Shown: positions 29,010 to 42,132, numbered from the stretch's first letter. The stretch: DNA of 64,000 nt from Syntrophobacterales bacterium (GCA_050124835.1 JASFEM010000004.1:3588-67587), one strand, 5' to 3'. Translations and numbers: made by a program. The notes: a model not told the origin generated them from the letters alone.

Positions 29010-29408
29010 ATGCTCCATACCTTAATCGTTGAGGACAACGCTACATTTAGAGAATCGCTCAAGGAGATATTGTGCGACCGATTCCCCTCTCTGGTTGTGG
29101 AAGAAGCTGGGGACGGTAAGGAGGCGCTAGAGAAAATTGAGACCTTTGTGCCGCACCTCGTCTTTATGGACATAAGACTGCCTGGAGCAAGCGGCCTTGA
29201 AATAACCGGCAAAATAAAGGCACGCCACACTCAGATTGTCGTCATAATTCTTACTAGCTATGATCTTCCAGAGTATCGACAGGCAGCAGAACAATTCGGA
29301 GCCGATTACTTCCTTTCAAAAGGGGCAACGAGTGCTAAGGAGATTTTGGCGTTGGTGGGTGATATCTCCACTCGAATAGGTTTCGATTTAAATGGTCCGA
29401 ACCGCTAA
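29010..29408 (+). CDS. single-domain response regulator (CheY-like)
   Basis: 132 aa with receiver fold only. The phospho-aspartate context is VFMDIRLPGASG. Confidence 0.75.
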   Translation: MLHTLIVEDNATFRESLKEILCDRFPSLVVEEAGDGKEALEKIETFVPHLVFMDIRLPGASGLEITGKIKARHTQIVVIILTSYDLPEYRQAAEQFGADYFLSKGATSAKEILALVGDISTRIGFDLNGPNR

Positions 29409-32248: not shown

Positions 32249-32584
32249 TTGGCATGGACCATCGACGATGCAGTTTCAGATAAGAATCTTAGAGATGCCA
32301 AGATTCATCTTCAAGAGGTGTCTTTTCGCCTCGGCGACCTTACTCCCAAAATTCGGATAAGACTTTTTAGATACCCAGGAGACAAAGAAGTCTACTTTGA
32401 GCAAAGCCACTTCATTCAAACACCCGGTCAAGAAAGTGTATTTTTTCCGGCGATGAAATCTGATAATAGTGAAGCCTATGCGTTGACCCATGCTGTTGAG
32501 GGTCTGACTCACACTTACGAAGCTGCCGTGGAACTGGGGCACGAGCCCTCTGACGTTTGGTTGGTGACTAATCCAGACTTCTGA
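32249..32584 (+). CDS. hypothetical protein
   Basis: 111-aa ORF with reasonable codon usage and no recognisable motifs. It lies between two repeat composites. Confidence 0.3.
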   Translation: MAWTIDDAVSDKNLRDAKIHLQEVSFRLGDLTPKIRIRLFRYPGDKEVYFEQSHFIQTPGQESVFFPAMKSDNSEAYALTHAVEGLTHTYEAAVELGHEPSDVWLVTNPDF

Positions 32585-32775: not shown

Positions 32776-32811
32776 CCTGGCCCAAAGGACCAGGTTACCG
32801 GGACGCTAATG
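32776..32811 (+). promoter_or_regulatory. conserved leader motif CCTGGCCCAAAGGACCAGGTTACCGGGAC..AATGAG, shared with 56833-56880
   Basis: About 29 of 32 nt are identical between the two loci. It contains the imperfect palindrome TGGCCC-AAA-GGACCA. Here the AATGAG includes the annotated start codon of the radical SAM gene. Confidence 0.5.
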
Positions 32812-33816
32812 AGCTCTGAGAATGACCTAAAAGAGTGCACGCTTTGTGAGCACAGGTGCGGCGTGGACCGTGTGGCTGGCGAACTGGGCGTGTGCCGCAT
32901 CGCCGGTCCCATTGTCGCATCGAGAACCCTTCATCCAGCCCCTCCGGAAAGCTATACCATCTTCGTTGCGGGATGCAACTTCAAGTGCGTAGGCTGTCAA
33001 AATTGGACCATATCCCAGTTTCCTGATAATCGGATGCCCATAGAGGGTTATGTGGATCCCAAATCCCTCGCCCAGGAATCCGTAAAAATGCTGGAATCGA
33101 CCGCTGGAATTCTTATGGGCGCCGACAGGATATTCTTCTCTGGGGGTGAACCCACAATCCATCTTCCTTTCATAGAAGAGGTTGTAAAAGAGGCCAGACG
33201 GCTCAGGCCCTCTTTGAAGGTTAATTTTGATACCAATGGCTTTATGACGGAAGAATCTCTCAAAAGAATCTTGAATTTCACCACCTCCATGACTTTTGAC
33301 ATCAAAGCCTTCTATAACGACACCATGAGGGCTATTACCGGGGCCCCGGTTGAACCTGTCCTGAGAAATGCAGAAATAGTAGCTAGAACTGCCAGTGAAA
33401 AGCTGTGGGAATATAGAATAGTCGCAATACCCGAGGTAAACGAGGATGATATTGAACCTCTCTGCCGTTTCCTCGCCTCCATATCTAAAAATCTTCCTGT
33501 CTGTTTTCTCTCTTTCAGACCAAACTATGTTATGGATGAACACCCCGGGGCCACGCGGGAACTCATGAGGCAGTGCGTTGAGCAGGCCAGGCTTGCTGGT
33601 TTAAGAAATGTTACCTATGCCGGTACAACGAATATTCCGGGAAAGGTAGGAGTCCTCCAGAGAAAGGTGGAGGGGGATTATAGCAGAAGAGGGGCCAAGA
33701 TGGCCGCGTCTTACGCTCTTTCAAAAGGCTGTAATACACACCCCAGAGATTGCTCTAATTGTCCGTCTATGAGTACGTGCCCACTCAAGAAGTATTTACC
33801 CCTCAGGAGTTCCTAA
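32809..33816 (+). CDS. radical SAM enzyme (PFL-activase / AmmeMemoRadiSam-like)
   Basis: N-terminal Cys cluster CTLCEHRCGV...GVC, followed by the canonical CNFKCVGCQNW (CxxxCxxC) motif and a GGEPT glycine-rich SAM motif. Confidence 0.65.
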   Translation: MSSENDLKECTLCEHRCGVDRVAGELGVCRIAGPIVASRTLHPAPPESYTIFVAGCNFKCVGCQNWTISQFPDNRMPIEGYVDPKSLAQESVKMLESTAGILMGADRIFFSGGEPTIHLPFIEEVVKEARRLRPSLKVNFDTNGFMTEESLKRILNFTTSMTFDIKAFYNDTMRAITGAPVEPVLRNAEIVARTASEKLWEYRIVAIPEVNEDDIEPLCRFLASISKNLPVCFLSFRPNYVMDEHPGATRELMRQCVEQARLAGLRNVTYAGTTNIPGKVGVLQRKVEGDYSRRGAKMAASYALSKGCNTHPRDCSNCPSMSTCPLKKYLPLRSS

Positions 33817-33946: not shown

Positions 33947-36622
33947 CTAGCTCCGGCCTCCTGATTGCTGGATGAGCTTGGCCACCAGCCCGGTCCAACC
34001 CGTCTGATGGCTGGCCCCTAAGCCGGCACCATTGTCACCGTGAAAATATTCGTTGAACAAGATCAGATCGCGCCATAAGGGATCTCGCTGGAATTTTTCC
34101 AGTCCACCGTAAATCGGACGATCACCCTCGCCATTTATAAGAAAGAGACTCATCAGACGCCGGGACAACTCGGTGGCCACCTCCCACAGAGTCATCCACT
34201 GACCAGACCCGGTGGGACATTCGATTTTCAGGTCATCACCATAGTAGTGATGGAATTTCTGCAAAGACTCAATAATTAGGTAATTCATGGGAAACCAGAT
34301 GGGACCCCTCCAGTTGGAGTTGCCTCCGAACAGACCGCTCTCAGACTCGGCTGGTTGGTAATTGATCGTGTGGGGTTGCCCGTCAACGTGGAAGCTGTAA
34401 GGATGCGTCCAGTGATACTTCGAAACAGAGCGAATGCCATAATCGGAGAGAAACTCATTTTCATCCAGCATTTTCCCCAAAACCCGCACGAGCCGGTCCT
34501 GGGTCAAGATGGCTAGCAGCCGACGCTCGCCAATACCTGGCGTTTCGATACAGGCCAGATTTCCGCTCAAGTGAGGGCGATTGCTGTAGAACCACTGCAT
34601 TCGCCTCTCAAAAACCGGCATGGTTTCCAGGATTTCCGGTTCGATGGTGTCCACTGCAAACAAGGGAAGCAGTCCCACCATGGAGCGCACCTTCAAAGCA
34701 ACGACCCGATCGTCGGGCAGATGAAGCGCGTCGTAGAAGAAGCCGTCCTCCTCATCCCAGAGACTGTGCCCATGACCACCACAGTCGGTCATTGCATGAG
34801 CTATACGCAGAAAGTGCTCGAAAAATTTTGTGGCCACATCCTGATAAACAGGGTTCTCCTTGGCCAATTCTAGAGCTATTTTCAGCATGGACAAGCAGAA
34901 CGCGCCCATCCAGGCAGTGCCATCTGCTTGGTCTATGTGTCCACCTGTGGGTAGCGCTTGGCTGCGATCAAAAACACTGACGTTATCCATGCCAAGAAAA
35001 CCGCCCTGGAAAACGTTTCTGCCGTCTTCATCTTTGCGGTTGACCCACCAGGTGAAATTCAAAAGCAATTTGTGAAAAACTGATTCCAAGAAGTCACGGT
35101 CCGGTCGTCCCCATTGCTTCCCGTCAATTTTGTACACTCTCCAGGCAGCCCAGGCCGGAACCGGCGGATTAACGTCGCCAAAGGACCATTCATAGGCCGG
35201 CAACTGCCCGTTGGGATGCATGTACCACTCTCGGGTAATCAACTCCAGCTGCCGCTTGGCGAAATCGGGATCAACCAGGGTCAGAGGGATGCAGTGAAAG
35301 GCCAGATCCCAAGTGGCGTACCAGGGGTACTCCCATTTGTCCGGCATGGAGATGATGTCGAAGTTAACGAGATGATCCCAATCATGGTTACGCCCGTGCA
35401 TGCGAGATCGTGGTGGTGTCGGTTCGCCAGGATCGCCCTTTAACCATTGTTCTATGTCGTAGTAATAAAGTTGCTTGGACCAGAGCATTCCGGCCAGGGC
35501 TTGGCGCTGCACCCGTTTCTCATCTTCACTTAGATTGTGGGGTTGCACGGCCGCGTAAAACTCATCCGCTTCAGCCAGTCGCTGCCCGAAGATTGCATCG
35601 AAGTTCTGAAATGGCTCTTTGTGCGCCATCTTTGACAATCGTAGTCGGAGAGCGACTGATCCCTCAGGAGTGATGGTTTCCTTAAAGAGCGCGGCCGTTT
35701 TCGTACCCGTCCGCTCAGGGTTGACTGCAGTGGTTTCAGCGTCGATCACATACCGATGAAATGCGTCTTTGACATAGGGATTAGGGTTGGGAAGACCGTA
35801 GAGCCGTTCTGCGTTGGTCTCATTTTCCGTGAAGATCAGCTCCTCCGCCCCTTCGGCATAGAGAAAGTAGGTCCCGGCTGCCGGGTGGTCAACCTCCACC
35901 GTGGATACACCCGCAGTCCTTTCCAGCAGGTGCAGCTGGGGTTTACCCGGTGTGTCGGCCATGGGGCCGTCCTCGTAGCCCCAACTCCAGGTGTTCCTGA
36001 ACCAGAATGTCGGCAAAATATGACACTCGGCCGGTTCAGGCCCACGATTAACCACGGTAATTTTTACCAAAATATCTTCTCGGTCCGCTTTGGCGTACTC
36101 AACAAACACATCAAAGTAGCGATTATCTCCAAAAATTCCAGTATCGAGGAGCTCGTATTCTAAATCGTGGTATCCGCGCCGCCCATTTTCGGCGACCAGT
36201 TCTGCATAAGGAAACTCGCCCTGCGGGTACTTGTAGAGCATTTTCATGTAGCTGTGGGTAGGGGTGCTGTCGAGATAGAAGTAATACTCTTTCACGTCCT
36301 CACCGTGATTGCCTTGCGAGCCAGTGAGCCCAAACAGTCGTTCTTTTAAGATCGGGTCGCGACCATTCCAGAGAGCCAGCCCGAAGCAAAGATGCTGATT
36401 TCGGTCACTGATCCCTGCCAGGCCGTCCTCACCCCAACGGTAGGCTTTGCTGTGGGCATGATCGTGCGGGAAAAAGTCCCAGGCTTCTCCGTCCTCACTG
36501 TAATCCTCTCGTACCGTTCCCCAGGAGCGCTCACTGATATATGGCCCCCATTTTTTCCAATTCGACTTGCGCTCGCGGTATTCGGTCAACCGCTTATGTT
36601 CATCTGTTTGCTTCATGGACAT
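33947..36622 (-). CDS. large (alpha/alpha)6-barrel glycoside hydrolase (clan GH-G, GH63 / glucosidase or mannosylglycerate-hydrolase-like)
   Basis: 891 aa with aromatic/acidic blocks ([46 protein letters not shown]) typical of GH63/GH37-type six-hairpin enzymes. Glucokinase is adjacent. Confidence 0.55.
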
Positions 36623-36705
36623 TCCCCTGCGACCCTGAACTGCCAGGAGACTTGCTTAAGAAATCGCAAATCATTTCGAAAAACACATTTATTAACCTCA
36701 TCACA

Positions 36706-36840
36706 GGTTGGGCTTGAGGGCTGAGGTATTCCCGACGCGGCGTATGTTGCCAGCCTATGCAAACTTGAATGGTTAGGCCGTCCTGCATGTTGCTGCAGAG
36801 GATGGCAATCCCGCGTCTCGCGGGACTCGGGCTGCCAGCT
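36706..36840 (+). repeat. copy B (truncated) of the approximately 200-bp dispersed element
   Basis: GGTTGGGCTTGAGGGCTGAGGTATTCCCGACGCGGCGTATGTTGCCAGCCTATGCAAACTTGAATGGTTAGGCCGT matches copy A over its first 130 nt or so. It lies in the 270-bp gap between the glycoside hydrolase start and the glucokinase stop. Confidence 0.7.
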
Positions 36841-36891
36841 GTCTGCTGTCTGCTTAGAAGTGCTCTATGCTCTCTGCCCCATGCCCTATGC

Positions 36892-37899
36892 TTATTTCGA
36901 CAAGCGGCTAAGGGCACAATGTGCCGCCCCCAACAGGGCCGCCTGCTCGTTGAGAATCACCCGGACAGGTATTTTCTCTAACAATTCACTGAACCTGCCT
37001 TTGTTTGTAAATGCCTGCATAAACATAGATTCCTTCAGTTTAGGCAGGATTTTAGGTGGGATCCCACCACCCAGGTAAACACCTCCCGTCGTCATCGCGA
37101 TTAAGGCCAGGTTACCGGCAACTGCTCCAAATATGGAGACAAACATATTCAATGCCGCCACGCACACGGGATGTTTACCATCCAGTGCGGCTTCGGTAAT
37201 CGCCCTTGCCGGATCCATCTCTTCCATGTTCCTGGCTAACCAGGTAGGTATCCGATGGCGGCCGGTGTCTTTGAGCCATAGATAAATATTTACCAATCCG
37301 GGACCAGACAAGACCCTTTCTACGCTGACGTGCCCAAATCGTTTATGAAGGTAACGCCACAATTTGATTTCCGCTTCGGTGTTTGGAGAAAAATCGATGT
37401 GCCCCCCCTCAGAAGGTACAGGGACGTACTCCCCGTCTCGAAAAATAAGCAATGCCTTCCCCAGACCCGTGCCTGGAGCGACCAACGCAAGGTTTTGCCC
37501 TTTGCGACTTTTTGCCTTGTTCAAGCGAAAGAGCTCTCGACTGTTCAGAAGAGGAATGGCATGCGCCGTGGCTGTCAAGTCATTTATAAGAGAGACATGG
37601 GCCCACTCGAAGCGTTTTTTAATCTTATCTTCGGCGACGTACCACGGCAAATTGGTTGTTTGGCATCGCCCATTTATCACCGGACCCGCAATACCAAAGC
37701 ATGCACTCTGAACCGGCACCTGATGTTTGTCCAAAAATCGTGCGATGATCCACTCCAGATTCGGCGCCTCCCTGCTGGAATAAGTCTCAATTACCTTTGC
37801 AGCAGGACGGGTCCTTCCTTGACGGAAAAAGCCGAGGTTCGTCTTTGTCCCCCCAATATCACCGGCTAAAACAAAAAGATCACTCTCAGGATTTTTCAT
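36892..37899 (-). CDS. glk: glucokinase (Glk family)
   Basis: N-terminal ATP motif LAGDIGGTKTNLGFF, with length and downstream blocks consistent with bacterial Glk. Confidence 0.7.
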   Translation of the reverse strand: MKNPESDLFVLAGDIGGTKTNLGFFRQGRTRPAAKVIETYSSREAPNLEWIIARFLDKHQVPVQSACFGIAGPVINGRCQTTNLPWYVAEDKIKKRFEWAHVSLINDLTATAHAIPLLNSRELFRLNKAKSRKGQNLALVAPGTGLGKALLIFRDGEYVPVPSEGGHIDFSPNTEAEIKLWRYLHKRFGHVSVERVLSGPGLVNIYLWLKDTGRHRIPTWLARNMEEMDPARAITEAALDGKHPVCVAALNMFVSIFGAVAGNLALIAMTTGGVYLGGGIPPKILPKLKESMFMQAFTNKGRFSELLEKIPVRVILNEQAALLGAAHCALSRLSK

Positions 37900-38433
37900 T
37901 GGCTATCTCTCCTCAGAACGTTTGAGCCCAGTTTATCTTGATAATTCTCTCTTCTGAGCTTCATACAAATTAATATAAGACACTTGCTCACAATTTAAAG
38001 GAGGCTGACTCCATAATATTTTACCTTCGCACTTTGCCTGGTCGCCACTTTAAACAAGAAAACCCTGACCGCTTACTCAGAAGCTTGATCAGGGTATAAC
38101 AGTATTACGATGAGAATCGGAGTGTAAAAGTACTCTCGTATTTATACTTTTTGAATTCTTATATAGATCCTTTAAAAGAATATTAAACTGTCATATAAAG
38201 AGCTTTGAAAATGTATTTATGTTTCAAAAATTGTAGATAAAATATTATTGTTCTATTAGTACATTACATATTCTTAATTGATTATGGCATTTCTTATTAT
38301 TTATCCTGATATTTTGGTCAAATTGTGTATAAGATTTTTCAAAAATAAAGAATTTTGTATTTTTTTCTTGACAGATAAAAATTTTTTAGCTAAACACCTA
38401 TGCTAGATATAGTGTAATTTGAGCAAATTTTTG

Positions 38434-38907
38434 CTAAATATTAGCACATTTTTTCACACTAGCGGTTTTTATAAACATTATTGCTAGCTCTTGCTTCTCT
38501 TTTGTTAATCTTTTGATTCGACCACTTAGTTTAATTACATTAGTTCTTACTGGATCAGAAACCTTATCATCCGAGTATAGCTGTAAATCAACCTTTTCAT
38601 CTTGGGCGAAGTTCACCCAATCGTCTAGCTTGACAAGGGCACCGTTGATACTCACATCGACAATGGTGCCCTCAATGGCTTTTTTCGGTTTTTTGTTGGT
38701 GACTACAACCCTGAAAGGCCTGGTTATCCGCTTATACTTTCTTTTTTCATCATCGCATTTTTCGCAATGCTCACAGATTCTTTTTGCGGTTTCGATCTCG
38801 GAGGGTTCAAGTAGCTGGGGAATCAAATAGGCCTTGTCAATGGCTTGATTTTTTGGGCAATGCCCGCTACTGTAATACTGGCACTTTTCCCAGGCTGGCT
38901 CTTTCAT
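38434..38907 (-). CDS. PilZ-domain c-di-GMP receptor with N-terminal Cys-rich (C..C..CxxCxxC) module
   Basis: PilZ motifs RITRPFR (RxxxR) and DVSINGALV (D/NxSxxG). Cysteines at positions 9, 17, 45, 48 and 51. The gene sits in a low-GC islet. Confidence 0.65.
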   Translation of the reverse strand: MKEPAWEKCQYYSSGHCPKNQAIDKAYLIPQLLEPSEIETAKRICEHCEKCDDEKRKYKRITRPFRVVVTNKKPKKAIEGTIVDVSINGALVKLDDWVNFAQDEKVDLQLYSDDKVSDPVRTNVIKLSGRIKRLTKEKQELAIMFIKTASVKKCANI

Positions 38908-39173
38908 AGGACCACCTCCACATGGAGACTCTGGGTCCGGAGCTTAGGGGATCAGGCTGCTTGGTAAATATCAATGCTTGGAGAATAGCTAGGACCGAAA
39001 ATTTTGGATAAATACGTAACTCTTATATTTTGCTATTAAATTATGTTTCTTGTTGATTGTAAATACGAAAAATTCGTAGATTGTGAATTTTTTGTCAGTT
39101 TTTTGTTAATTATTTGTGAAGAATTGGTCATGGTGCATATAATAAGAAAGTAGCGATTTATTTTTTCTTCGAC

Positions 39174-39512
39174 TTGAAGGGCCACAAGATGGAGTCTTTC
39201 GAAAGACGGAAGTACACGAGAACCCTTAGAAGTTTCAGAATAAAGATCAAGCTCGCTCGTACTTCCAAAGAGGTAGACGGGGTCACCCAGGACTTGTCCC
39301 AAGGTGGTGCCTTTATCTCGAGCCCATCCTGGCCTACCTTCCATCAGAATGATCAAGCGGAAATGCGAGTTTATTTACCTCCTGAATTTACCGGACAAAA
39401 CAACACTTTAGTTCTCACTGGCCCGGCGTTAGTCAAGAGGATAGAGAAGGAAAGACAAGGGGTAGCCGTTGAGTTCTTAAGAGAATTAAGAACCTTCCAG
39501 CCTTCGTTGTAG
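39174..39512 (+). CDS. PilZ-domain protein
   Basis: Motifs RRKYTRTLR and DLSQGGAFIS. It is divergent from the other PilZ gene across an AT-rich 266-bp spacer. The start may be the Met at 39189. Confidence 0.6.
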   Translation: MKGHKMESFERRKYTRTLRSFRIKIKLARTSKEVDGVTQDLSQGGAFISSPSWPTFHQNDQAEMRVYLPPEFTGQNNTLVLTGPALVKRIEKERQGVAVEFLRELRTFQPSL

Positions 39513-39593
39513 ATGGGTCACAGTTGTTGGCTCTTTCACCCTCGATGGTATGTCAGAAAACTTTTCCTGGTTTTGGTTCGGTTTACATCAAAC

Positions 39594-40022
39594 CTACTGC
39601 CGACTCTTCTCAAGTTCCTTTATATAAGCCACAGCTCTTTCCAGTTCATCGGTTAGGTAGCGTGTACGGAGAATCGACTTCACCCGGATTGCCAGCTCCA
39701 CCAAGTCAATGGGTTTGTTGACGAAATCATCGGCTCCCACTTCAATCGCAGCTATCTTGTTTTCATCGTATCCCGTTATCATTATGATGGGTATGTACTG
39801 CGTTTTCGGATCAGTCTTTAATCTCTTGCAGACTTCTATCCCATCAATACCGGGCATCCTAACATCCAGCAAGATTACATGTGGAGTCTCTCCTTTTGCC
39901 AACTCTATGGCCTCTTCTCCGGCTGAAGCCAGAAGCACGTCGTAGCCTTCTTGCTGTAGAACCTCGCTGAGCAAATCCCTTATTTCAAGTTCATCATCCA
40001 CCACCAAAACCTTCTCCTCCAT
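39594..40022 (-). CDS. single-domain response regulator with short C-terminal helix
   Basis: Receiver motifs VLVVDDE, ILLDVRMPGIDG and a conserved K in NKP. Confidence 0.8.
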   Translation of the reverse strand: MEEKVLVVDDELEIRDLLSEVLQQEGYDVLLASAGEEAIELAKGETPHVILLDVRMPGIDGIEVCKRLKTDPKTQYIPIIMITGYDENKIAAIEVGADDFVNKPIDLVELAIRVKSILRTRYLTDELERAVAYIKELEKSRQ

Positions 40023-40628
40023 GGTACCCCTCCCTTCCTGGATGTCAAAATTATCGGATAAATGATTTTTCCGCTTTCAGGCGCCTGAGATTGGACAAAG
40101 TAGACCCTCCAAGACTTCAGTGATGAGCCTCCCGTATCGGACCGCCCAATTTCTCATCATTAATCCAGTTTGGGCTTACGATGACTTGGTTGAATCTGGA
40201 TGTTTGTATGCTAACGCATAGCTTCGTGTGAACTTACCTATCGAGGTCATGCGCCTTTGGTAGGTTCAACGCTTACAGTCTCAGAGGGCTTGCGGTTTGT
40301 CAAGGAGTTAGTTAAAGGGCCACCGCAATGCTGCCAGCGTCAAGAGTTACATTCCCATAGTTAATCGTTTTCTTGGGGGAGATAGAAAGCGGATTTAAGT
40401 AGGGACGTGGTGGATGTGATGCCGTCCTGCCACGGTAGGTAGATTTCTGCCATTTCCGAAAAAATAGCAGTTTCCTATTCTTGATTAGACTCAAGATATC
40501 GTGGCAGAATCTTAAAGGGCAAAGTTTAGATTAAAATATGAAATGCAAACTCCCAGGAAAAAGGTAGGAGAGCTTACATGCTGGCGATTTCACTTCTGTC
40601 TGCCCGTACTAGCAGATAAATCGGTGAC

Positions 40629-41249
40629 CTACTTTTCTAGGTTTTTGATCTTGCCCCTCAGAATCTTTTTGTATTTTCTACAAGCCACAGGAATGGTTAT
40701 AGCGCCAAAAGGATACTTCGAATAGTCTTTCTCGGGATCGAAACATTCGGGTTTGCCACCATCTAATCCCCATTTATTTGGATTATAAGTATTTGAAATA
40801 TATGCTCCCCCACCATGCGTTTTGACAAGCCCAAAGTGGAGATGTTGATAACCATTATGTGACTCACCAGAAAGACCGATTAATTGTCCCCTTTGTACTG
40901 TTTGAAAGTAGGAAACAAAGACCTCAGACAGGTGTGCATATACAGAATAATATGGTTTGGAGACTTCATCGTAATGTTCAAGAAACACATAGAATCCGCC
41001 CTTACCAGGGTCAGTCGGATCATTACGTTCTCTGATCGATACAACCTTTCCGTCAGAACACGCAATAATGGGAGTCCCTTTAGGAATGGAGTAGTCAAGC
41101 CCTGGATGTCTACCTTCTCCGTATTTAACAGGTGCGCCATACCCAACGCCAATGCGAGGTCTACCTTCTTTGATGGCACTACACGACAAATTCAAGGAGG
41201 CAACGAGGGCCAAAAGGATGAGCACCGAGAAGCGTTTAGTTTTTGCCAT
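40629..41249 (-). CDS. M23-family (LytM) metallopeptidase lipoprotein
   Basis: Signal peptide plus lipobox NLSCSA. Catalytic motifs HPGLDYSIP (HxxxD) and HLHFGL (HxH). Confidence 0.7.
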   Translation of the reverse strand: MAKTKRFSVLILLALVASLNLSCSAIKEGRPRIGVGYGAPVKYGEGRHPGLDYSIPKGTPIIACSDGKVVSIRERNDPTDPGKGGFYVFLEHYDEVSKPYYSVYAHLSEVFVSYFQTVQRGQLIGLSGESHNGYQHLHFGLVKTHGGGAYISNTYNPNKWGLDGGKPECFDPEKDYSKYPFGAITIPVACRKYKKILRGKIKNLEK

Positions 41250-41739
41250 TTTTCCCTCCTTTGCCTGTCGGCAGGTGGGAAGCCTTTGACTCCAGTGGTT
41301 AGTGTTTGTCCTCGGTGAAACTCAGGAGAGCAGGAAGGTCTCTCGATGTTCAACTAGCGAGGGAACGTGAGCTACTTTCAGAATAGGACGTTCAGGTAAT
41401 TCACGTCAATACGCAATGTCAGGCTTTCGGGATTCCTCGGTTGGCTCGAAAAGGCAAGCGCGCACTGTGCCTTCCATCCCTTAATTAACACTCGTGTGGA
41501 GATTACTCTGGTCCAATATGTTGAGAAATGAGGTTACTCGTTACCAATAAAGAACGGTAATCTTCTCCAGCTCAGGCAGATAGGGAGCCCCTCCGAGAGG
41601 TGGCAGCCTCATATTCTCACATTCAGATCGAAATATATCGCTGCCAGTAAATAGAAACAGTAGCTAGATCTGATCGAGACACATCCTCATACAGACGATG
41701 CTTTGTCACAATGGAAGAGGGCAGACCGAAGCGGTTACA

Positions 41740-42132
41740 CTAGTCTTTCACAAGAAGCTTCACATTATGGATGAGTTCTTCTGGCTCGATGGGCTTTTCC
41801 ATGAAGATATCCGCATGAATCCAGTCCAAATCCTCATCTAACGTTCGGCCATATCCCTTTTCCACCGGCGGCCTGGCAGAAACGATGAGTATGGGCACTC
41901 CGAAAACGCCATCGTTCTTTTTGACTTCGGTGGCAAAGTTTAACCCCTCATCCATGGTTTCCATCATGATGTCGAGGATGAGTAGATCCGGACGAGTGTC
42001 AGAAAAGAGCTGGAAACCTTTGCGTGTATCCAGGGCAGTAAAAACCTGATAGCCATACTGGGAGAGAATTTGGCTCAGCGCATCACAAATTTCCGGATCA
42101 TCATCGATGATTACAATTCTCTTTGCACTCAT
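41740..42132 (-). CDS. single-domain response regulator
   Basis: Receiver motifs IVIIDDD, LLILDIMM and SARPP. It is 130 aa. Confidence 0.75.
   Translation of the reverse strand: MSAKRIVIIDDDPEICDALSQILSQYGYQVFTALDTRKGFQLFSDTRPDLLILDIMMETMDEGLNFATEVKKNDGVFGVPILIVSARPPVEKGYGRTLDEDLDWIHADIFMEKPIEPEELIHNVKLLVKD

What the first reader, a model, noticed from the sequence alone, without database searches (positions are those of the whole stretch)
37900..39530. AT-rich islet with two divergent PilZ genes, one bearing an N-terminal Cys module
The 530 bp upstream of 38434 and the 266-bp divergent spacer are strongly AT-rich, and the two PilZ ORFs are of clearly lower GC than the flanking glucokinase and response-regulator genes. 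This suggests horizontal acquisition or a curved or H-NS-like silenced regulatory region. The 157-aa PilZ protein has an unusual N-terminal C-X7-C...C-X2-C-X2-C cluster fused to the c-di-GMP binding domain. The islet is flanked by three single-domain response regulators and an M23 peptidase.
Basis: partly seen in the sequence, partly recalled or inferred. Interest (0 to 1): 0.5.

Follow-up and report, generated by a model that had tools for sequence, protein, structure and literature searches.

The report
Conserved AT-rich PilZ pair with Cys module
The AT-rich patch is not foreign DNA: it is an old, vertically inherited pair of c-di-GMP receptor genes found only in one group of uncultured sediment Desulfobacterota, with an almost invariant control region between the genes and an undescribed four-cysteine module on one of the proteins.

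Summary
The AT-richness is real. The lowest 300-bp GC in the window is 0.20, against a mean of 0.50 (about 6 SD), and it lies just 3' of the 157-aa PilZ gene. That gene has the lowest GC of 55 ORFs (0.41). The second PilZ gene (107 aa) has ordinary GC.

Horizontal acquisition is refuted. The divergent pair sits at the same syntenic place, with the same GC dips, in every relative down to about 57% protein identity.

The spacer is a constrained control region. It contains a perfect palindrome, TACGAA-N3-TTCGTA, that abuts a -35/-10-like pair, four ACAA repeats exactly 11 bp apart, and a TTGTGA-18-TATAAT promoter-like site for the 107-aa gene. Pairwise identity here is 85-99%, against 58% at third codon positions.

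The 3' trailer carries two conserved promoter-like blocks that face back into the gene. In this genome it ends at a hairpin plus T-run.

Both proteins keep the c-di-GMP motifs RxxxR and DxSxxG. The N-terminal module (C-X7-CP...C-X2-C; the fifth Cys is not conserved) has no hit in Pfam, NCBIfam or the PDB. It has only 109 representatives among 1.84 billion proteins, either fused to PilZ or stand-alone. Metal binding, the protein that binds the operator and antisense transcription are all inferred, not shown.

The parts
38434..38907 (-). Cys-PilZ gene (157 aa): an N-terminal four-Cys module followed by a canonical PilZ domain.
   Evidence: ORF. Pfam PilZ covers residues 54-144. The exact protein occurs on 13 metagenome contigs. 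152 homologue clusters were found; the 120 listed are 148-165 aa, mostly 157 aa. GC is 0.407, the lowest of 55 ORFs.
38740..38907 (-). N-terminal Cys module, residues 1-56: W-E-x-C9-x7-C17-P...D-K-A-Y-L-I-P-Q-L-L...C45-x2-C48 (the window protein also has C51).
38476..38748 (-). PilZ beta-barrel with the c-di-GMP motifs R56-K-Y-K-R60 (RxxxR) and D84-V-S86-I-N-G89 ([D/N]hSxxG).
   Evidence: R56, R60, D84, S86 and G89 are invariant. In the AF2 model the barrel is the higher-confidence part (10-residue pLDDT block means 59-91 for residues 61-150). The model's best PDB matches are Alg44, 4xrn, YcgR, MotI and MrkH PilZ domains.
39189..39512 (+). Divergent partner gene PilZ107: a single-domain PilZ of 107 aa, with an alternative TTG start at 39174.
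   Evidence: Pfam PilZ, E=9.5e-11. It is 29% identical to the Cys-PilZ barrel over 94 aa (E=4e-17) and keeps RRKYTR and DLSQGG. It is present divergently in all loci examined.
39064..39078 (.). Perfect palindrome TACGAA-N3-TTCGTA, a putative operator for a dimeric DNA-binding protein.
   Evidence: It occurs once in the 64-kb window. It occurs exactly once per locus in 27 of 35 loci, in every one I checked about 157-175 bp upstream of the Cys-PilZ start, including the paralogue locus L029. The 20-column block that contains it has 0.99 mean pairwise identity.
39035..39063 (-). Candidate Cys-PilZ promoter TTTACA-N17-TTTAAT, directly abutting the palindrome. The palindrome centre would lie near -43.5 and the predicted TSS near 39028.
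   Evidence: TTTACA is invariant and TAATTTAAT nearly invariant in 15 genomes. The paralogue locus L029 has TTGACA-N17-TTTAAT in the same position. No transcript data; the -10 lacks the usual A at position 2.
39081..39117 (.). Four ACAA/A-tract direct repeats with exact 11-bp spacing (minus strand: TCACAAATAA / TTAACAAAAAA / CTGACAAAAAA / TTCACAATC), lying between the two divergent promoters.
   Evidence: Read from the sequence and alignment A2. Pairwise identity is 0.85-0.91. AAA/TTT periodicity at 10.5 bp in 39030-39130 exceeded all 500 shuffles.
39114..39143 (+). Promoter-like site for PilZ107: TTGTGA-18-TATAAT.
   Evidence: Scan hit with 10 of 12 matches. The -10 (ATTATA on the aligned strand) is conserved in 11 of 12 genomes.
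38100..38433 (-). Extremely AT-rich trailer 3' of the Cys-PilZ stop codon (GC 0.23): a probable long 3' UTR that holds two conserved blocks.
   Evidence: It is 95% identical to the complete-genome relative L009 over 566 nt. Two blocks are conserved across 12 genomes at 0.67-0.89 identity, against 0.32-0.50 for the sequence around them. No conserved small ORF and no Rfam hit.
38369..38397 (+). Block 1 ('as1'): promoter-like TTGACA-N17-TAAACA facing into the 3' end of Cys-PilZ, the same direction as PilZ107.
   Evidence: TTGACA is invariant and sits 57 nt after the stop codon in 14 of 17 genomes (60 nt in the window and L009; 77 nt in L021, whose ORF ends early). The -10 is TA[GCA][AG]GT in 15 of 17. 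In the window and L009 the -10 is degenerate (TAAACA).
38222..38248 (+). Block 2 ('as2'): promoter-like TTTCAA-15-TATTAT, in the same orientation as block 1. Relatives have [TC]TGT[TC]A-N16-[TG]A[GAC]AAT.
   Evidence: Found about 199 nt after the stop codon in 14 of 17 genomes; L013 (160 nt, poor -35) and the window/L009 versions are weaker. The central GTTATCTACAAATTA block has 0.89 identity.
38051..38095 (-). Intrinsic-terminator-like hairpin followed by UUUUCUUGUUU, about 340-385 nt after the Cys-PilZ stop codon.
   Evidence: RNA fold energy is -17.9 kcal/mol (z=-2.2). L009 keeps the hairpin through a two-sided change, GCUU/AAGC to GCUC/GAGC. I read a GAGAG...CUCUC hairpin plus T-run at a comparable distance in another subclade by eye from alignment A4; it was not scored.
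37972..37999 (-). Promoter-like site TTTAAA-16-TATATT ahead of glucokinase, downstream of the terminator.
   Evidence: Scan hit. It suggests glucokinase has its own promoter, so the AT-rich trailer would belong to the Cys-PilZ transcription unit.

Best explanation
The islet is a vertically inherited, lineage-specific two-gene c-di-GMP receptor cassette of uncultured sediment Desulfobacterota. NCBI labels these genomes Syntrophobacterales, Deltaproteobacteria or Desulfobacteraceae MAGs.

The AT-richness is a maintained property of the locus and has three sources:
1. A dense bidirectional control region between the two genes. It holds a PilZ107 promoter (TTGTGA-18-TATAAT), four A-tract/ACAA repeats phased at 11 bp that probably bend the DNA or act as an UP element or tandem binding sites, and an invariant palindrome TACGAA-N3-TTCGTA that abuts the -35 of a TTTACA-17-TTTAAT promoter for Cys-PilZ. 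The palindrome is most likely the operator of a dimeric regulator that sits at a class-II-activator or -35-occluding position.
2. A long AT-rich trailer of about 350-385 nt 3' of Cys-PilZ. It contains two conserved promoter-like blocks that face back toward the gene, and in this genome it ends in an intrinsic terminator.
3. A Lys/Asn/Ile-rich coding sequence.

The two proteins are old paralogues (29% identity), and both keep the residues that bind c-di-GMP. Cys-PilZ has in addition a roughly 55-residue helical module with four invariant cysteines. Its last Cys ligand lies only 8 residues before the RxxxR arginines.

Proposed mechanism (inferred). The cysteines hold a metal centre, either Zn or an Fe-S cluster. 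In YcgR, PlzD and MrkH, c-di-GMP binding to the RxxxR linker and the barrel re-orients the N-terminal domain, and the same would happen here. Cys-PilZ output, meaning the binding of a partner, would then depend on both c-di-GMP and the state of the metal site. PilZ107 would be the plain c-di-GMP-only counterpart.

Shown: composition, synteny, motif conservation, domain identity, rarity of the module.
Inferred: metal binding, promoter activity, operator function, terminator use, downstream target.
For: Composition is exceptional and is conserved in 14 orthologous loci.

Synteny and pairing hold from 92% down to about 57% protein identity and in 13 orthologous genome loci. 31 of 59 metagenome loci that carry the operator have Cys-PilZ 163-174 nt downstream, and most of those with enough upstream sequence also have the PilZ107 partner.

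The spacer core is 0.85-0.99 identical between genomes, against 0.58 at third codon positions and 0.66 at the amino-acid level. The palindrome occurs once per locus at a fixed distance, and the paralogue cassette L029 keeps it together with TTGACA-17-TTTAAT. A-tract phasing exceeded all 500 shuffles.

Both proteins are PilZ by Pfam, and the Cys-PilZ model matches solved PilZ barrels. The RxxxR and DxSxxG residues are invariant in Cys-PilZ, and PilZ107 carries the same motifs.

The four cysteines are invariant. Three stay invariant and a fourth is kept at a shifted position in the stand-alone homologues. PilZ is the only Pfam domain ever found with the module (23 of 99 representatives). One stand-alone module gene lies between two PilZ genes.

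The terminator hairpin keeps its pairing through a compensatory change.
Against: No transcript, binding or metal data exist for any member, and all the organisms are uncultured.

The -10 of the proposed Cys-PilZ promoter (TTTAAT) lacks the canonical A at position 2.

AF2 gives only low to moderate confidence for the module: block-mean pLDDT 42-59 in the full-length model and 65 overall when modelled alone. Its fold and the geometry of the four cysteines are therefore unknown.

One paralogue (L029) has Ser in place of C17, so the metal site is not obligatory in every copy.

Two of the three stand-alone module genes examined are not next to a PilZ gene.

The phasing statistic came from several regions and periods tested without correction for multiple tests, and it is weak for the 3' trailer.

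The SD-sequestering hairpin folds no better than shuffled sequence (z=-0.1).
Confidence: 0.65

Rival explanations
1. Recently acquired foreign DNA: an AT-rich genomic islet, possibly silenced by a xenogeneic silencer such as an H-NS-like protein.
For: The Cys-PilZ gene has the lowest GC of 55 ORFs, and the flanking intergenic DNA is about 6 SD below the window mean.
Against: The gene pair, gene order and GC profile are the same in all relatives down to about 57% protein identity. Non-coding identity exceeds synonymous-site identity, which indicates purifying selection rather than recent arrival. There are no tRNA genes, no flanking direct repeats and no mobility genes. The truly variable slot lies next door at about 39.5-42.4 kb (response regulator, M23, response regulator), not at the PilZ pair.
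Confidence: 0.04
2. Cys-PilZ is itself the DNA-binding protein. It would be a c-di-GMP-dependent, metal-stabilised autoregulator, functionally like MrkH or PlzA, that binds the TACGAA-N3-TTCGTA palindrome in its own bidirectional promoter.
For: The operator travels with the cassette. It is found once per locus, only at this spacer, and is retained unchanged in the duplicated paralogue cassette. In the metagenome scan, 31 of 59 matching loci were next to Cys-PilZ, 5 were too short to judge, and the other 23 were in unrelated contexts, about the number I estimate chance would give. No DNA-binding regulator is conserved next to the pair. There are precedents for PilZ proteins that bind nucleic acid: MrkH structures appear among the fold hits, and PlzA binds DNA and RNA in a c-di-GMP-dependent way (PMC9915621, abstract seen). 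A basic stretch, EKRKYRRIxRP, follows the module.
Against: No known DNA-binding fold was detected in the module. The basic stretch is simply the c-di-GMP-binding RxxxR loop. Co-inheritance of an operator with its target genes is also expected for a regulator encoded elsewhere. Stand-alone module genes have no such palindrome nearby: L033-L035 are among the loci with no match.
Confidence: 0.12
3. Excludon-like antisense control. The two conserved promoter-like blocks in the 3' trailer would drive a plus-strand RNA that runs antisense through Cys-PilZ and on into PilZ107. Expression of the two paralogous receptors would then be mutually exclusive. This can coexist with the best explanation.
For: Block 1 has an invariant TTGACA 57 nt from the stop codon in 14 of 17 genomes (60 nt in the window and L009, 77 nt in L021) and a -10 of TAnnGT in 15 of 17. 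Block 2 is [TC]TGT[TC]A-N16-nAnAAT about 199 nt from the stop in 14 of 17. Both blocks are clearly more conserved than their surroundings. Both point in the direction of PilZ107. The only terminator-like site the scan found on the plus strand lies inside the Cys-PilZ ORF, over codons that vary between relatives, so no conserved terminator is evident before PilZ107. No conserved small ORF explains the blocks.
Against: These are sequence motifs only. In this window and in L009 both -10/-35 pairs are degenerate (TAAACA; a 15-nt spacer). AT-rich DNA produces promoter-like hexamers easily: the scan found 6 sites against 4.3 expected in shuffles. The blocks could instead be protein-binding sites or 3'-UTR RNA elements; they share ATCTAC and AATTAACAA words with the upstream core.
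Confidence: 0.2
4. Nothing special. This would be an unusually long, AT-biased intergenic region next to a Lys-rich small gene, with ordinary promoters and no dedicated regulatory design.
For: Intergenic DNA is generally AT-richer than coding DNA. The Cys-PilZ protein is rich in Lys, Asn and Ile (GC1 0.46, GC2 0.33). Rfam found nothing. The 5' UTR shows no convincing conserved structure.
Against: No other 300-bp window in the 64 kb falls below 0.36 GC, against 0.20 here. A core of about 60 nt at 85-99% identity across genomes whose proteins are 66% identical, with a perfect palindrome and repeats spaced exactly 11 bp apart, is not what neutral spacer DNA looks like.
Confidence: 0.08

Closest known systems
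Stand-alone and two-domain PilZ c-di-GMP receptors (MapZ/PA4608, PA0012, Alg44 PilZ, YcgR/PlzD/MotI)
   Same: Same domain: PF07238 above its cut-off, RxxxR and [D/N]hSxxG present, and a six-stranded barrel in the model that matches these solved structures. As in YcgR and PlzD, the RxxxR loop lies in the linker between an N-terminal domain and the barrel, so c-di-GMP-driven re-orientation of the domains is the expected mode of action. That mechanism is from my knowledge of those structures, not tested here.
   Different: The N-terminal domain is not a PilZN, PilZNR or xPilZ beta-barrel. It is a roughly 55-residue helical four-Cys module with no Pfam or NCBIfam model. The text search of the Galperin & Chou survey of PilZ-associated domains found no zinc- or Cys-rich N-domain (10.1101/814665). 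The 'YcgR' label that JGI gives some members is nominal.
MrkH (Klebsiella) and PlzA (Borrelia): PilZ proteins that bind nucleic acid when loaded with c-di-GMP
   Same: Small PilZ proteins with an extra N-terminal domain. MrkH autoregulates through a palindromic box in its own promoter (from my knowledge). Here an invariant palindrome is inherited together with the gene.
   Different: There is no sequence or fold similarity outside the PilZ barrel. DNA binding by Cys-PilZ is entirely untested.
ComFB/CdgR family (small helical c-di-NMP receptors; B. subtilis ComFB binds Zn through cysteines)
   Same: A small helical Cys-containing module in c-di-GMP signalling. In ComFB the Zn-binding cysteines are not conserved across the whole family (PMC12448109).
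   Different: The module did not match PF10719 even at E<=10. The Cys spacing is different. Here the nucleotide-binding role is already covered by the fused PilZ domain.
Ferredoxin-type [4Fe-4S] motif CxxCxxCxxxCP and Zn(Cys)4 knuckles or ribbons
   Same: The window protein has C45-x2-C48-x2-C51 plus a distant C17-P18, which resembles a three-plus-one set of cluster ligands. The family as a whole keeps four cysteines.
   Different: C51 is not conserved, so the CxxCxxC triad is specific to a subclade. No Fer4 or Zn-ribbon Pfam model matches. The predicted secondary structure is helical rather than a ribbon.
Excludons (long antisense RNAs that span divergent genes, described in Listeria)
   Same: Divergent genes of related function, with conserved promoter-like elements placed so that a transcript would be antisense to one gene and sense for the other. 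The excludon concept is from my own knowledge.
   Different: No RNA evidence exists here, and the promoters are degenerate in this particular genome.

Membership tests
PilZ domain c-di-GMP receptors (PF07238) | Match to the family HMM above the curated cut-off | tested here: met
   Cys-PilZ scores 37.6 bits and PilZ107 42.4 bits, against a cut-off of 22.5.
PilZ domain c-di-GMP receptors (PF07238) | RxxxR motif in the N-terminal loop of the domain | tested here: met
   R56-K-Y-K-R60, with R56 and R60 invariant in 31 sequences. PilZ107 has R-K-Y-T-R.
PilZ domain c-di-GMP receptors (PF07238) | [D/N]hSxxG motif | tested here: met
   D84-V-S86-I-N-G89, with D84, S86 and G89 invariant. PilZ107 has D-L-S-Q-G-G.
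PilZ domain c-di-GMP receptors (PF07238) | Six-stranded beta-barrel fold | tested here: met
   The AF2 model has six strands between residues 66 and 145, with 10-residue pLDDT block means of 59-91 over residues 61-150. Foldseek probability is 1.00 to the Alg44, 4xrn, YcgR and BcsA PilZ domains.
PilZ domain c-di-GMP receptors (PF07238) | Binds c-di-GMP | not testable with these tools
   Needs DRaCALA, ITC or MST on purified protein.
YcgR-type flagellar brake (PilZN-PilZ) | N-terminal PilZN/YcgR domain (PF07317 or PF12945) | tested here: not met
   There is no such Pfam hit on the full protein at E<=0.01 or on residues 1-56 at E<=10. The JGI name 'YcgR' for some members is not supported.
Horizontally acquired genomic island | Atypical base composition | tested here: met
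   Gene GC is -2.6 SD and intergenic GC about -6 SD.
Horizontally acquired genomic island | Patchy presence or non-syntenic location in relatives | tested here: not met
   The pair is present and syntenic in all relatives examined.
Horizontally acquired genomic island | Mobility hallmarks (tRNA target, integrase, flanking direct repeats) | tested here: not met
   No tRNA in 25-50 kb, only short chance-level repeats, and no mobility genes among the neighbours.
Known Cys-rich metal-binding domains (Zn ribbons, Fer4, ComFB, CxxCxxCC/YkgJ) | Match to a curated family model or a solved fold | tested here: not met
Known Cys-rich metal-binding domains (Zn ribbons, Fer4, ComFB, CxxCxxCC/YkgJ) | Four conserved metal-ligand residues | tested here: met
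   C9, C17, C45 and C48 are invariant in the family. C9, C17 and C48 are invariant, with a fourth Cys at a shifted position, in stand-alone homologues. Metal content itself is not testable here.
c-di-GMP riboswitch or other known RNA element in the AT-rich DNA | Match to an Rfam covariance model | tested here: not met
   No match at E<=1 in 36500-41800 on either strand. RNAalifold on the 5' UTR found only two short helices with essentially no covariation.
Excludon / cis-antisense regulation | A long antisense transcript that overlaps one gene and extends into its divergent neighbour | not testable with these tools
   Only conserved promoter-like motifs in the right orientation are available.

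The most novel reading that the evidence does not exclude
The cassette would be a self-contained switch with three linked parts:
- Cys-PilZ is a new kind of c-di-GMP effector whose Cys4 (Fe-S or Zn) module makes it a redox- or metal-gated, c-di-GMP-dependent DNA-binding autoregulator of the invariant TACGAA-N3-TTCGTA operator.
- Conserved antisense promoters in its 3' trailer form an excludon that makes expression of Cys-PilZ and its paralogue PilZ107 mutually exclusive.
- The roughly 55-residue module is a new, portable sensory or output domain that also exists as a stand-alone small protein.
Probability: 0.1. Interest if true: 0.7.

Novelty: new variant of a known kind. Interest (0 to 1): 0.4.

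Why it matters
PilZ proteins are the most widespread c-di-GMP receptors, but for most of them both the output and the way other signals are integrated remain unknown. This locus offers three things that can be tested:
1. An undescribed, very rare four-Cys domain attached directly to the c-di-GMP-binding loop. It is a candidate link between redox or metal status and c-di-GMP signalling in anaerobic sediment Desulfobacterota.
2. An unusually well conserved cis-regulatory region (palindrome plus phased A-tracts) whose binding protein is unknown.
3. A possible antisense arrangement between two paralogous receptors.

It is also a caution for genome scans. Strong local AT-richness and low gene GC can be an ancient, selected feature of a core locus and need not be a sign of horizontal transfer.

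The limits are real. The clade is narrow and uncultured, and every functional statement is inferred. The finding is therefore of moderate rather than high interest.

Tried and rejected
- Rfam scan of 36500-41800 at E<=1: nothing, so no c-di-GMP riboswitch or known sRNA.
- tRNA scan of 25-50 kb: none.
- Repeat scan of 37500-40200: only short two-copy matches. One is a 22-nt, 77% complementary inverted pair flanking the gene (38298-38319 and 38993-39014). I saw only a 6-nt match at the corresponding positions in one relative (L025), so I treat it as chance in AT-rich DNA.
- Small ORFs in the 3' trailer. A 42-aa plus-strand ORF (38278-38406) and a recurring 'LLKKIxVISxNSxSYLQINK' reading frame both turned out to be by-products of conserved nucleotide blocks. 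Frames, starts and lengths are not conserved.
- SD-sequestering hairpin CUCCA/UGGAG before the start codon: invariant but no more stable than shuffles (z=-0.1), with no covariation. Not claimed.
- ComFB, Zn-ribbon and ferredoxin ideas: no model match.
- Replication origin, terminus, dif or DnaA-box idea. This came from the TTATCTACA word in block 2, which is one mismatch from a DnaA box. I rejected it because it is a single box, the left arm of the apparent inverted repeat is not conserved and there is no GC-skew turn at 38 kb.
- MerR-type reading (TTAACA-20-TACAAT with the dyad centred in the spacer). I dropped it because the last T of that -10 is not conserved, and because the paralogue locus supports TT(T/G)ACA-17-TTTAAT instead.
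- Apparent PilZ107 pseudogene in some JGI contigs, where genes of 49 and 36 aa were called. The DNA of L001 is identical to the window, so this is a gene-calling difference.
- Literature searches for the genome accessions and for Cys- or zinc-containing PilZ architectures: nothing relevant.
- Metagenome scan for further operator copies. The 23 loci not next to Cys-PilZ (and long enough to judge) are in unrelated contexts, about the number I estimate chance would give for 18 specified bases.
Full report
**1. The observation**

The window has GC 0.498. The 300-bp sliding GC has sd 0.048, and the minimum of 0.203 (38141-38440) is the lowest in the 64 kb by a wide margin. The other low-GC regions reach only 0.36-0.37. 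GC is 0.29 for 37900-38433, 0.23 for 38100-38433 and 0.29 for 38950-39173.

The minus-strand ORF 38434-38907 (157 aa) and the plus-strand ORF 39174/39189-39512 (112 or 107 aa) both match Pfam PilZ above its cut-off. The 157-aa gene has the lowest GC of the 55 long ORFs in the window (0.407, -2.6 SD; GC3 0.43, -2.1 SD). The second PilZ is ordinary (0.472; GC3 0.54) and equals the neighbouring response regulator.

The very AT-rich 534 bp lie 3' of the 157-aa gene, between its stop codon and the start of glucokinase (36892-37899, minus strand). They are not that gene's upstream region. A third single-domain response regulator lies about 9 kb away at 29010-29408.

**2. The islet is not foreign DNA**

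The exact 157-aa protein occurs on 13 metagenome contigs with the same neighbours. A homology search found 152 clusters. The 120 listed are 148-165 aa, mostly 157 aa, at 57-92% identity.

I fetched loci for relatives at 92%, 65%, 63% and 59% identity. One of them is a complete 3.22-Mb MAG chromosome (CP070735.1). All carry the same divergent pair, PilZ107 facing Cys-PilZ across a spacer of 273-294 bp. Glucokinase, GH63 and radical SAM usually lie on one side, and VTT, a 6PGD-like gene and an Lpd-like gene on the other.

A scan of one genome for each of 185,579 species found 17 loci. All are uncultured Desulfobacterota MAGs; 13 are orthologous and 4 are paralogous or more distant.

The composition is inherited with the locus. 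In 14 orthologous loci the gene GC is 0.36-0.42 against a locus GC of 0.45-0.50. Each has a 100-bp dip to 18-29% GC in the spacer and a stretch of about 200-300 bp at 17-38% GC across and after the stop codon. There are no tRNA genes, mobility genes or meaningful flanking repeats.

The part of the neighbourhood that really varies is the slot between VTT and PilZ107. In this window it holds a response regulator, the M23 peptidase and another response regulator. Relatives have other genes there.

**3. The divergent spacer**

I aligned the spacer from 12 genomes (A2). In Cys-PilZ sense it shows a core of this form:

...TTACAAGAAATTAACAAAAAATTGACAAAAAATTAACAATC-TACGAATTTTTCGTA-TTTACAATC...AAAACGTAATTTAATA...

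Mean pairwise identity is 0.85-0.91 across the repeats and 0.99 across the palindrome. The adjacent CDS gives 0.58 at third codon positions, 0.73 over all nucleotides and 0.66 at the amino-acid level.

- **Palindrome.** TACGAA-N3-TTCGTA (window 39064-39078) is perfect. It occurs once in the window. It occurs exactly once per locus in 27 of 35 loci then held, in every locus I checked about 157-175 bp before the Cys-PilZ start, including the paralogous cassette L029.
- **Sense promoter candidate.** Immediately 3' of the palindrome lies TTTACA, then 17 bp, then TTTAAT (39035-39063, minus strand). L029 has TTGACA-17-TTTAAT at the same place. This makes it the best candidate for the Cys-PilZ promoter, with the palindrome centred near -43.5. 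The weakness is a T at position 2 of the -10.
- **Phased repeats.** On the other side of the palindrome are four ACAA/A-tract repeats spaced exactly 11 bp apart (39081-39117). AAA/TTT periodicity at 10.5 bp in 39030-39130 exceeded all 500 shuffles.
- **PilZ107 promoter.** Next comes TTGTGA-18-TATAAT on the plus strand (39114-39143). Its -10 is conserved in 11 of 12 genomes.

A metagenome scan with the palindrome plus TTTACA returned 59 loci. In 31 of them Cys-PilZ starts 163-174 nt downstream, most with the PilZ107 partner on the other side, and 5 were too short to judge. The remaining 23 are in unrelated contexts, about the number I estimate chance would give.

The 5' UTR has no Rfam match and no convincing conserved structure. 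The small hairpin over the Shine-Dalgarno sequence folds no better than shuffled sequence.

**4. The 3' trailer**

The window and CP070735.1 are 95% identical across 566 nt of this non-coding DNA. Across 12 genomes two blocks stand out at 0.67-0.89 identity, against 0.32-0.50 for the sequence around them. Read on the strand opposite to Cys-PilZ, both look like sigma-70 promoters:

- **Block 1.** TTGACA is invariant. It lies 57 nt after the stop codon in 14 of 17 genomes, 60 nt in this window and L009, and 77 nt in L021, whose ORF ends early. It is followed by N17 and then TA[GCA][AG]GT in 15 of 17 genomes.
- **Block 2.** [TC]TGT[TC]A-N16-[TG]A[GAC]AAT lies about 199 nt after the stop codon in 14 of 17 genomes.

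In this window both blocks are weaker: TTGACA-17-TAAACA at 38369-38397 and TTTCAA-15-TATTAT at 38222-38248. Both point into the 3' end of Cys-PilZ, which is the direction of PilZ107. An antisense, excludon-like transcript is therefore conceivable but unproven. The only terminator-like site the scan found on the plus strand lies inside the Cys-PilZ ORF.

No small ORF is conserved in the trailer.

On the sense strand the trailer ends in a 13-bp interrupted hairpin followed by UUUUCUUGUUU (38051-38095; -17.9 kcal/mol, z=-2.2). It is kept in CP070735.1 through a two-sided change. A separate promoter-like site precedes glucokinase. The AT-rich 350-385 nt are thus most simply a long 3' UTR of Cys-PilZ.

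**5. The proteins**

The two PilZ domains are paralogues: 29% identity over 94 residues, E=4e-17. Both carry the c-di-GMP-contacting motifs. In Cys-PilZ these are R56xxxR60 and D84-x-S86-x-x-G89, all invariant in 31 sequences. In the AF2 model the barrel is the higher-confidence part, and the model's best PDB matches are c-di-GMP-bound PilZ domains of Alg44, 4xrn, YcgR, BcsA, MotI and MrkH.

PilZ107 homologues form an equally tight family of 75 clusters.

Residues 1-56 of Cys-PilZ form a separate module: W-E-x-C9-x7-C17-P-x5-D-K-A-Y-L-I-P-Q-L-L-x11-C45-x2-C48. The four cysteines are invariant.

The module matches nothing in Pfam (E<=10), NCBIfam or PDB sequences. AF2 predicts three or four helices at only moderate confidence, and structure searches give nothing significant.

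A profile search of 1.84 billion representative proteins found only 109 members. They are either 140-170 aa or 57-95 aa and stand-alone. PilZ is the only Pfam domain among them, in 23 of 99 scanned. The stand-alone forms keep C9, C17 and C48 and have a fourth Cys at a shifted position.

Three stand-alone module genes were examined in context. One (P0143) lies between two PilZ genes, which is a split version of the fusion. The other two do not lie next to PilZ genes. In one soil MAG the module is in frame with a 670-aa radical-SAM ORF. This could be a true fusion or simply a missing stop codon.

A text search of the survey of PilZ-associated N-domains (10.1101/814665) found no mention of zinc or of a Cys-rich domain.

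**6. How it most likely works**

Shown: this is an ancient, clade-specific cassette of two c-di-GMP receptor paralogues, with strongly constrained AT-rich cis-DNA on both sides of the Cys-PilZ gene.

Inferred:
- A dimeric regulator binds the palindrome next to the -35 of the Cys-PilZ promoter.
- The phased A-tracts bend the DNA or serve as an UP element or tandem binding sites for the back-to-back promoters.
- The four cysteines hold Zn or an Fe-S cluster.
- The RxxxR loop begins 8 residues after the last Cys ligand. Ligand binding would therefore re-orient the module relative to the barrel, as c-di-GMP does with the N-domains of YcgR, PlzD and MrkH (from my knowledge of those structures). Output would then depend on both c-di-GMP and the state of the metal site.

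The target of the output is unknown. The two more adventurous readings cannot be excluded and are each given low probability: Cys-PilZ binding its own operator, and an antisense or excludon circuit.

**7. Comparison and novelty**

Membership in the PilZ family is met on every criterion that could be tested. Membership in the YcgR type, in known Cys-rich domain families, in riboswitch families and in the class of genomic islands is not met.

The finding is a new variant of a known kind: a PilZ receptor with an undescribed N-terminal domain, plus a previously undescribed conserved operator region.

Interest is moderate. The compositional signal that drew attention is explained as a conserved property of the locus. 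The module and the operator are new but narrowly distributed, and nothing about them has been tested by experiment.

Noticed in passing
window 38434-38457 (last 7 codons of Cys-PilZ): The C-terminus ...VKKCANI is conserved in nearly all 157-aa members. It adds one more conserved Cys (C154) in a CaaX-like position. The nucleotides here are also unusually conserved (0.85 identity around the stop codon), so the constraint could act on the protein or on the DNA/RNA next to antisense block 1. Paralogues lack it.
   Followed up: partly
window about 39088-39093 (T-run inside the 11-bp repeat array): Two metagenome contigs that are otherwise identical to the window (L004, L005) are 1 nt shorter in this homopolymer. 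That would shift the phasing between the PilZ107 promoter and the palindrome by 1 bp. It could be a real polymorphism or an assembly error.
   Followed up: no
window 39594-42132: The block made up of a response regulator, the M23 peptidase and another response regulator occupies a slot that differs between relatives. L014 has a Big_5/PD40 protein there and L013 has a TPR protein plus an extra PilZ. L011 has MtrB/PioB next to PilZ107, and in L009 the flank beyond the response regulator is rearranged. The M23 gene has the lowest GC3 in the window (0.38). This slot, and not the PilZ pair, is the better candidate for recent gene turnover.
   Followed up: partly
L031 1135-3147: The Cys module (MDLQERINSC...AYLIPQLL...) is in frame, with no stop codon, with a 670-aa radical-SAM protein in a soil Deltaproteobacteria MAG. 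Elsewhere the same module type is a stand-alone gene of about 72 aa. It is unclear whether this is a true fusion or read-through of a lost stop codon.
   Followed up: partly
L059, L064, L082 (metagenome contigs at about 66% GC): A longer perfect palindrome, TGTAAATACGAA-N3-TTCGTATTTACA, occurs in unrelated high-GC genomes. It shares the same 6-3-6 core and presumably is the operator of some other regulator family. It might hint at what type of protein recognises the TACGAA half-site.
   Followed up: no
window 32249-32584 and 32809-33816: A 111-aa ORF with no Pfam or NCBIfam match sits next to a radical-SAM/Fer4_12 gene. The two are kept together, close to the PilZ cassette, in all relatives examined.
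   Followed up: no
window 33947-37899: A GH63/MGH1-like glycoside hydrolase (891 aa) lies directly next to glucokinase. This pairing would fit hydrolysis of a glucosyl compatible solute followed by phosphorylation of the glucose. It is conserved downstream of the PilZ pair in most relatives.
   Followed up: no
window 38298-38319 and 38993-39014: A 22-nt inverted repeat, 77% complementary, brackets the Cys-PilZ gene, with one arm in the 5' UTR and one in the 3' trailer. At the corresponding positions in one relative (L025) I saw only a 6-nt match, so it is probably chance in AT-rich DNA.
   Followed up: partly
L029 2366-4613: One MAG carries a second, diverged copy of the whole cassette: a divergent PilZ, the palindrome, and a Cys-PilZ-like gene with C17 replaced by Ser. 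Next to it is a convergent third paralogue of another subtype (CRLFKKQKCPYQREMERAYLIPQLL...). The family therefore diversifies by duplicating the whole cassette.
   Followed up: partly
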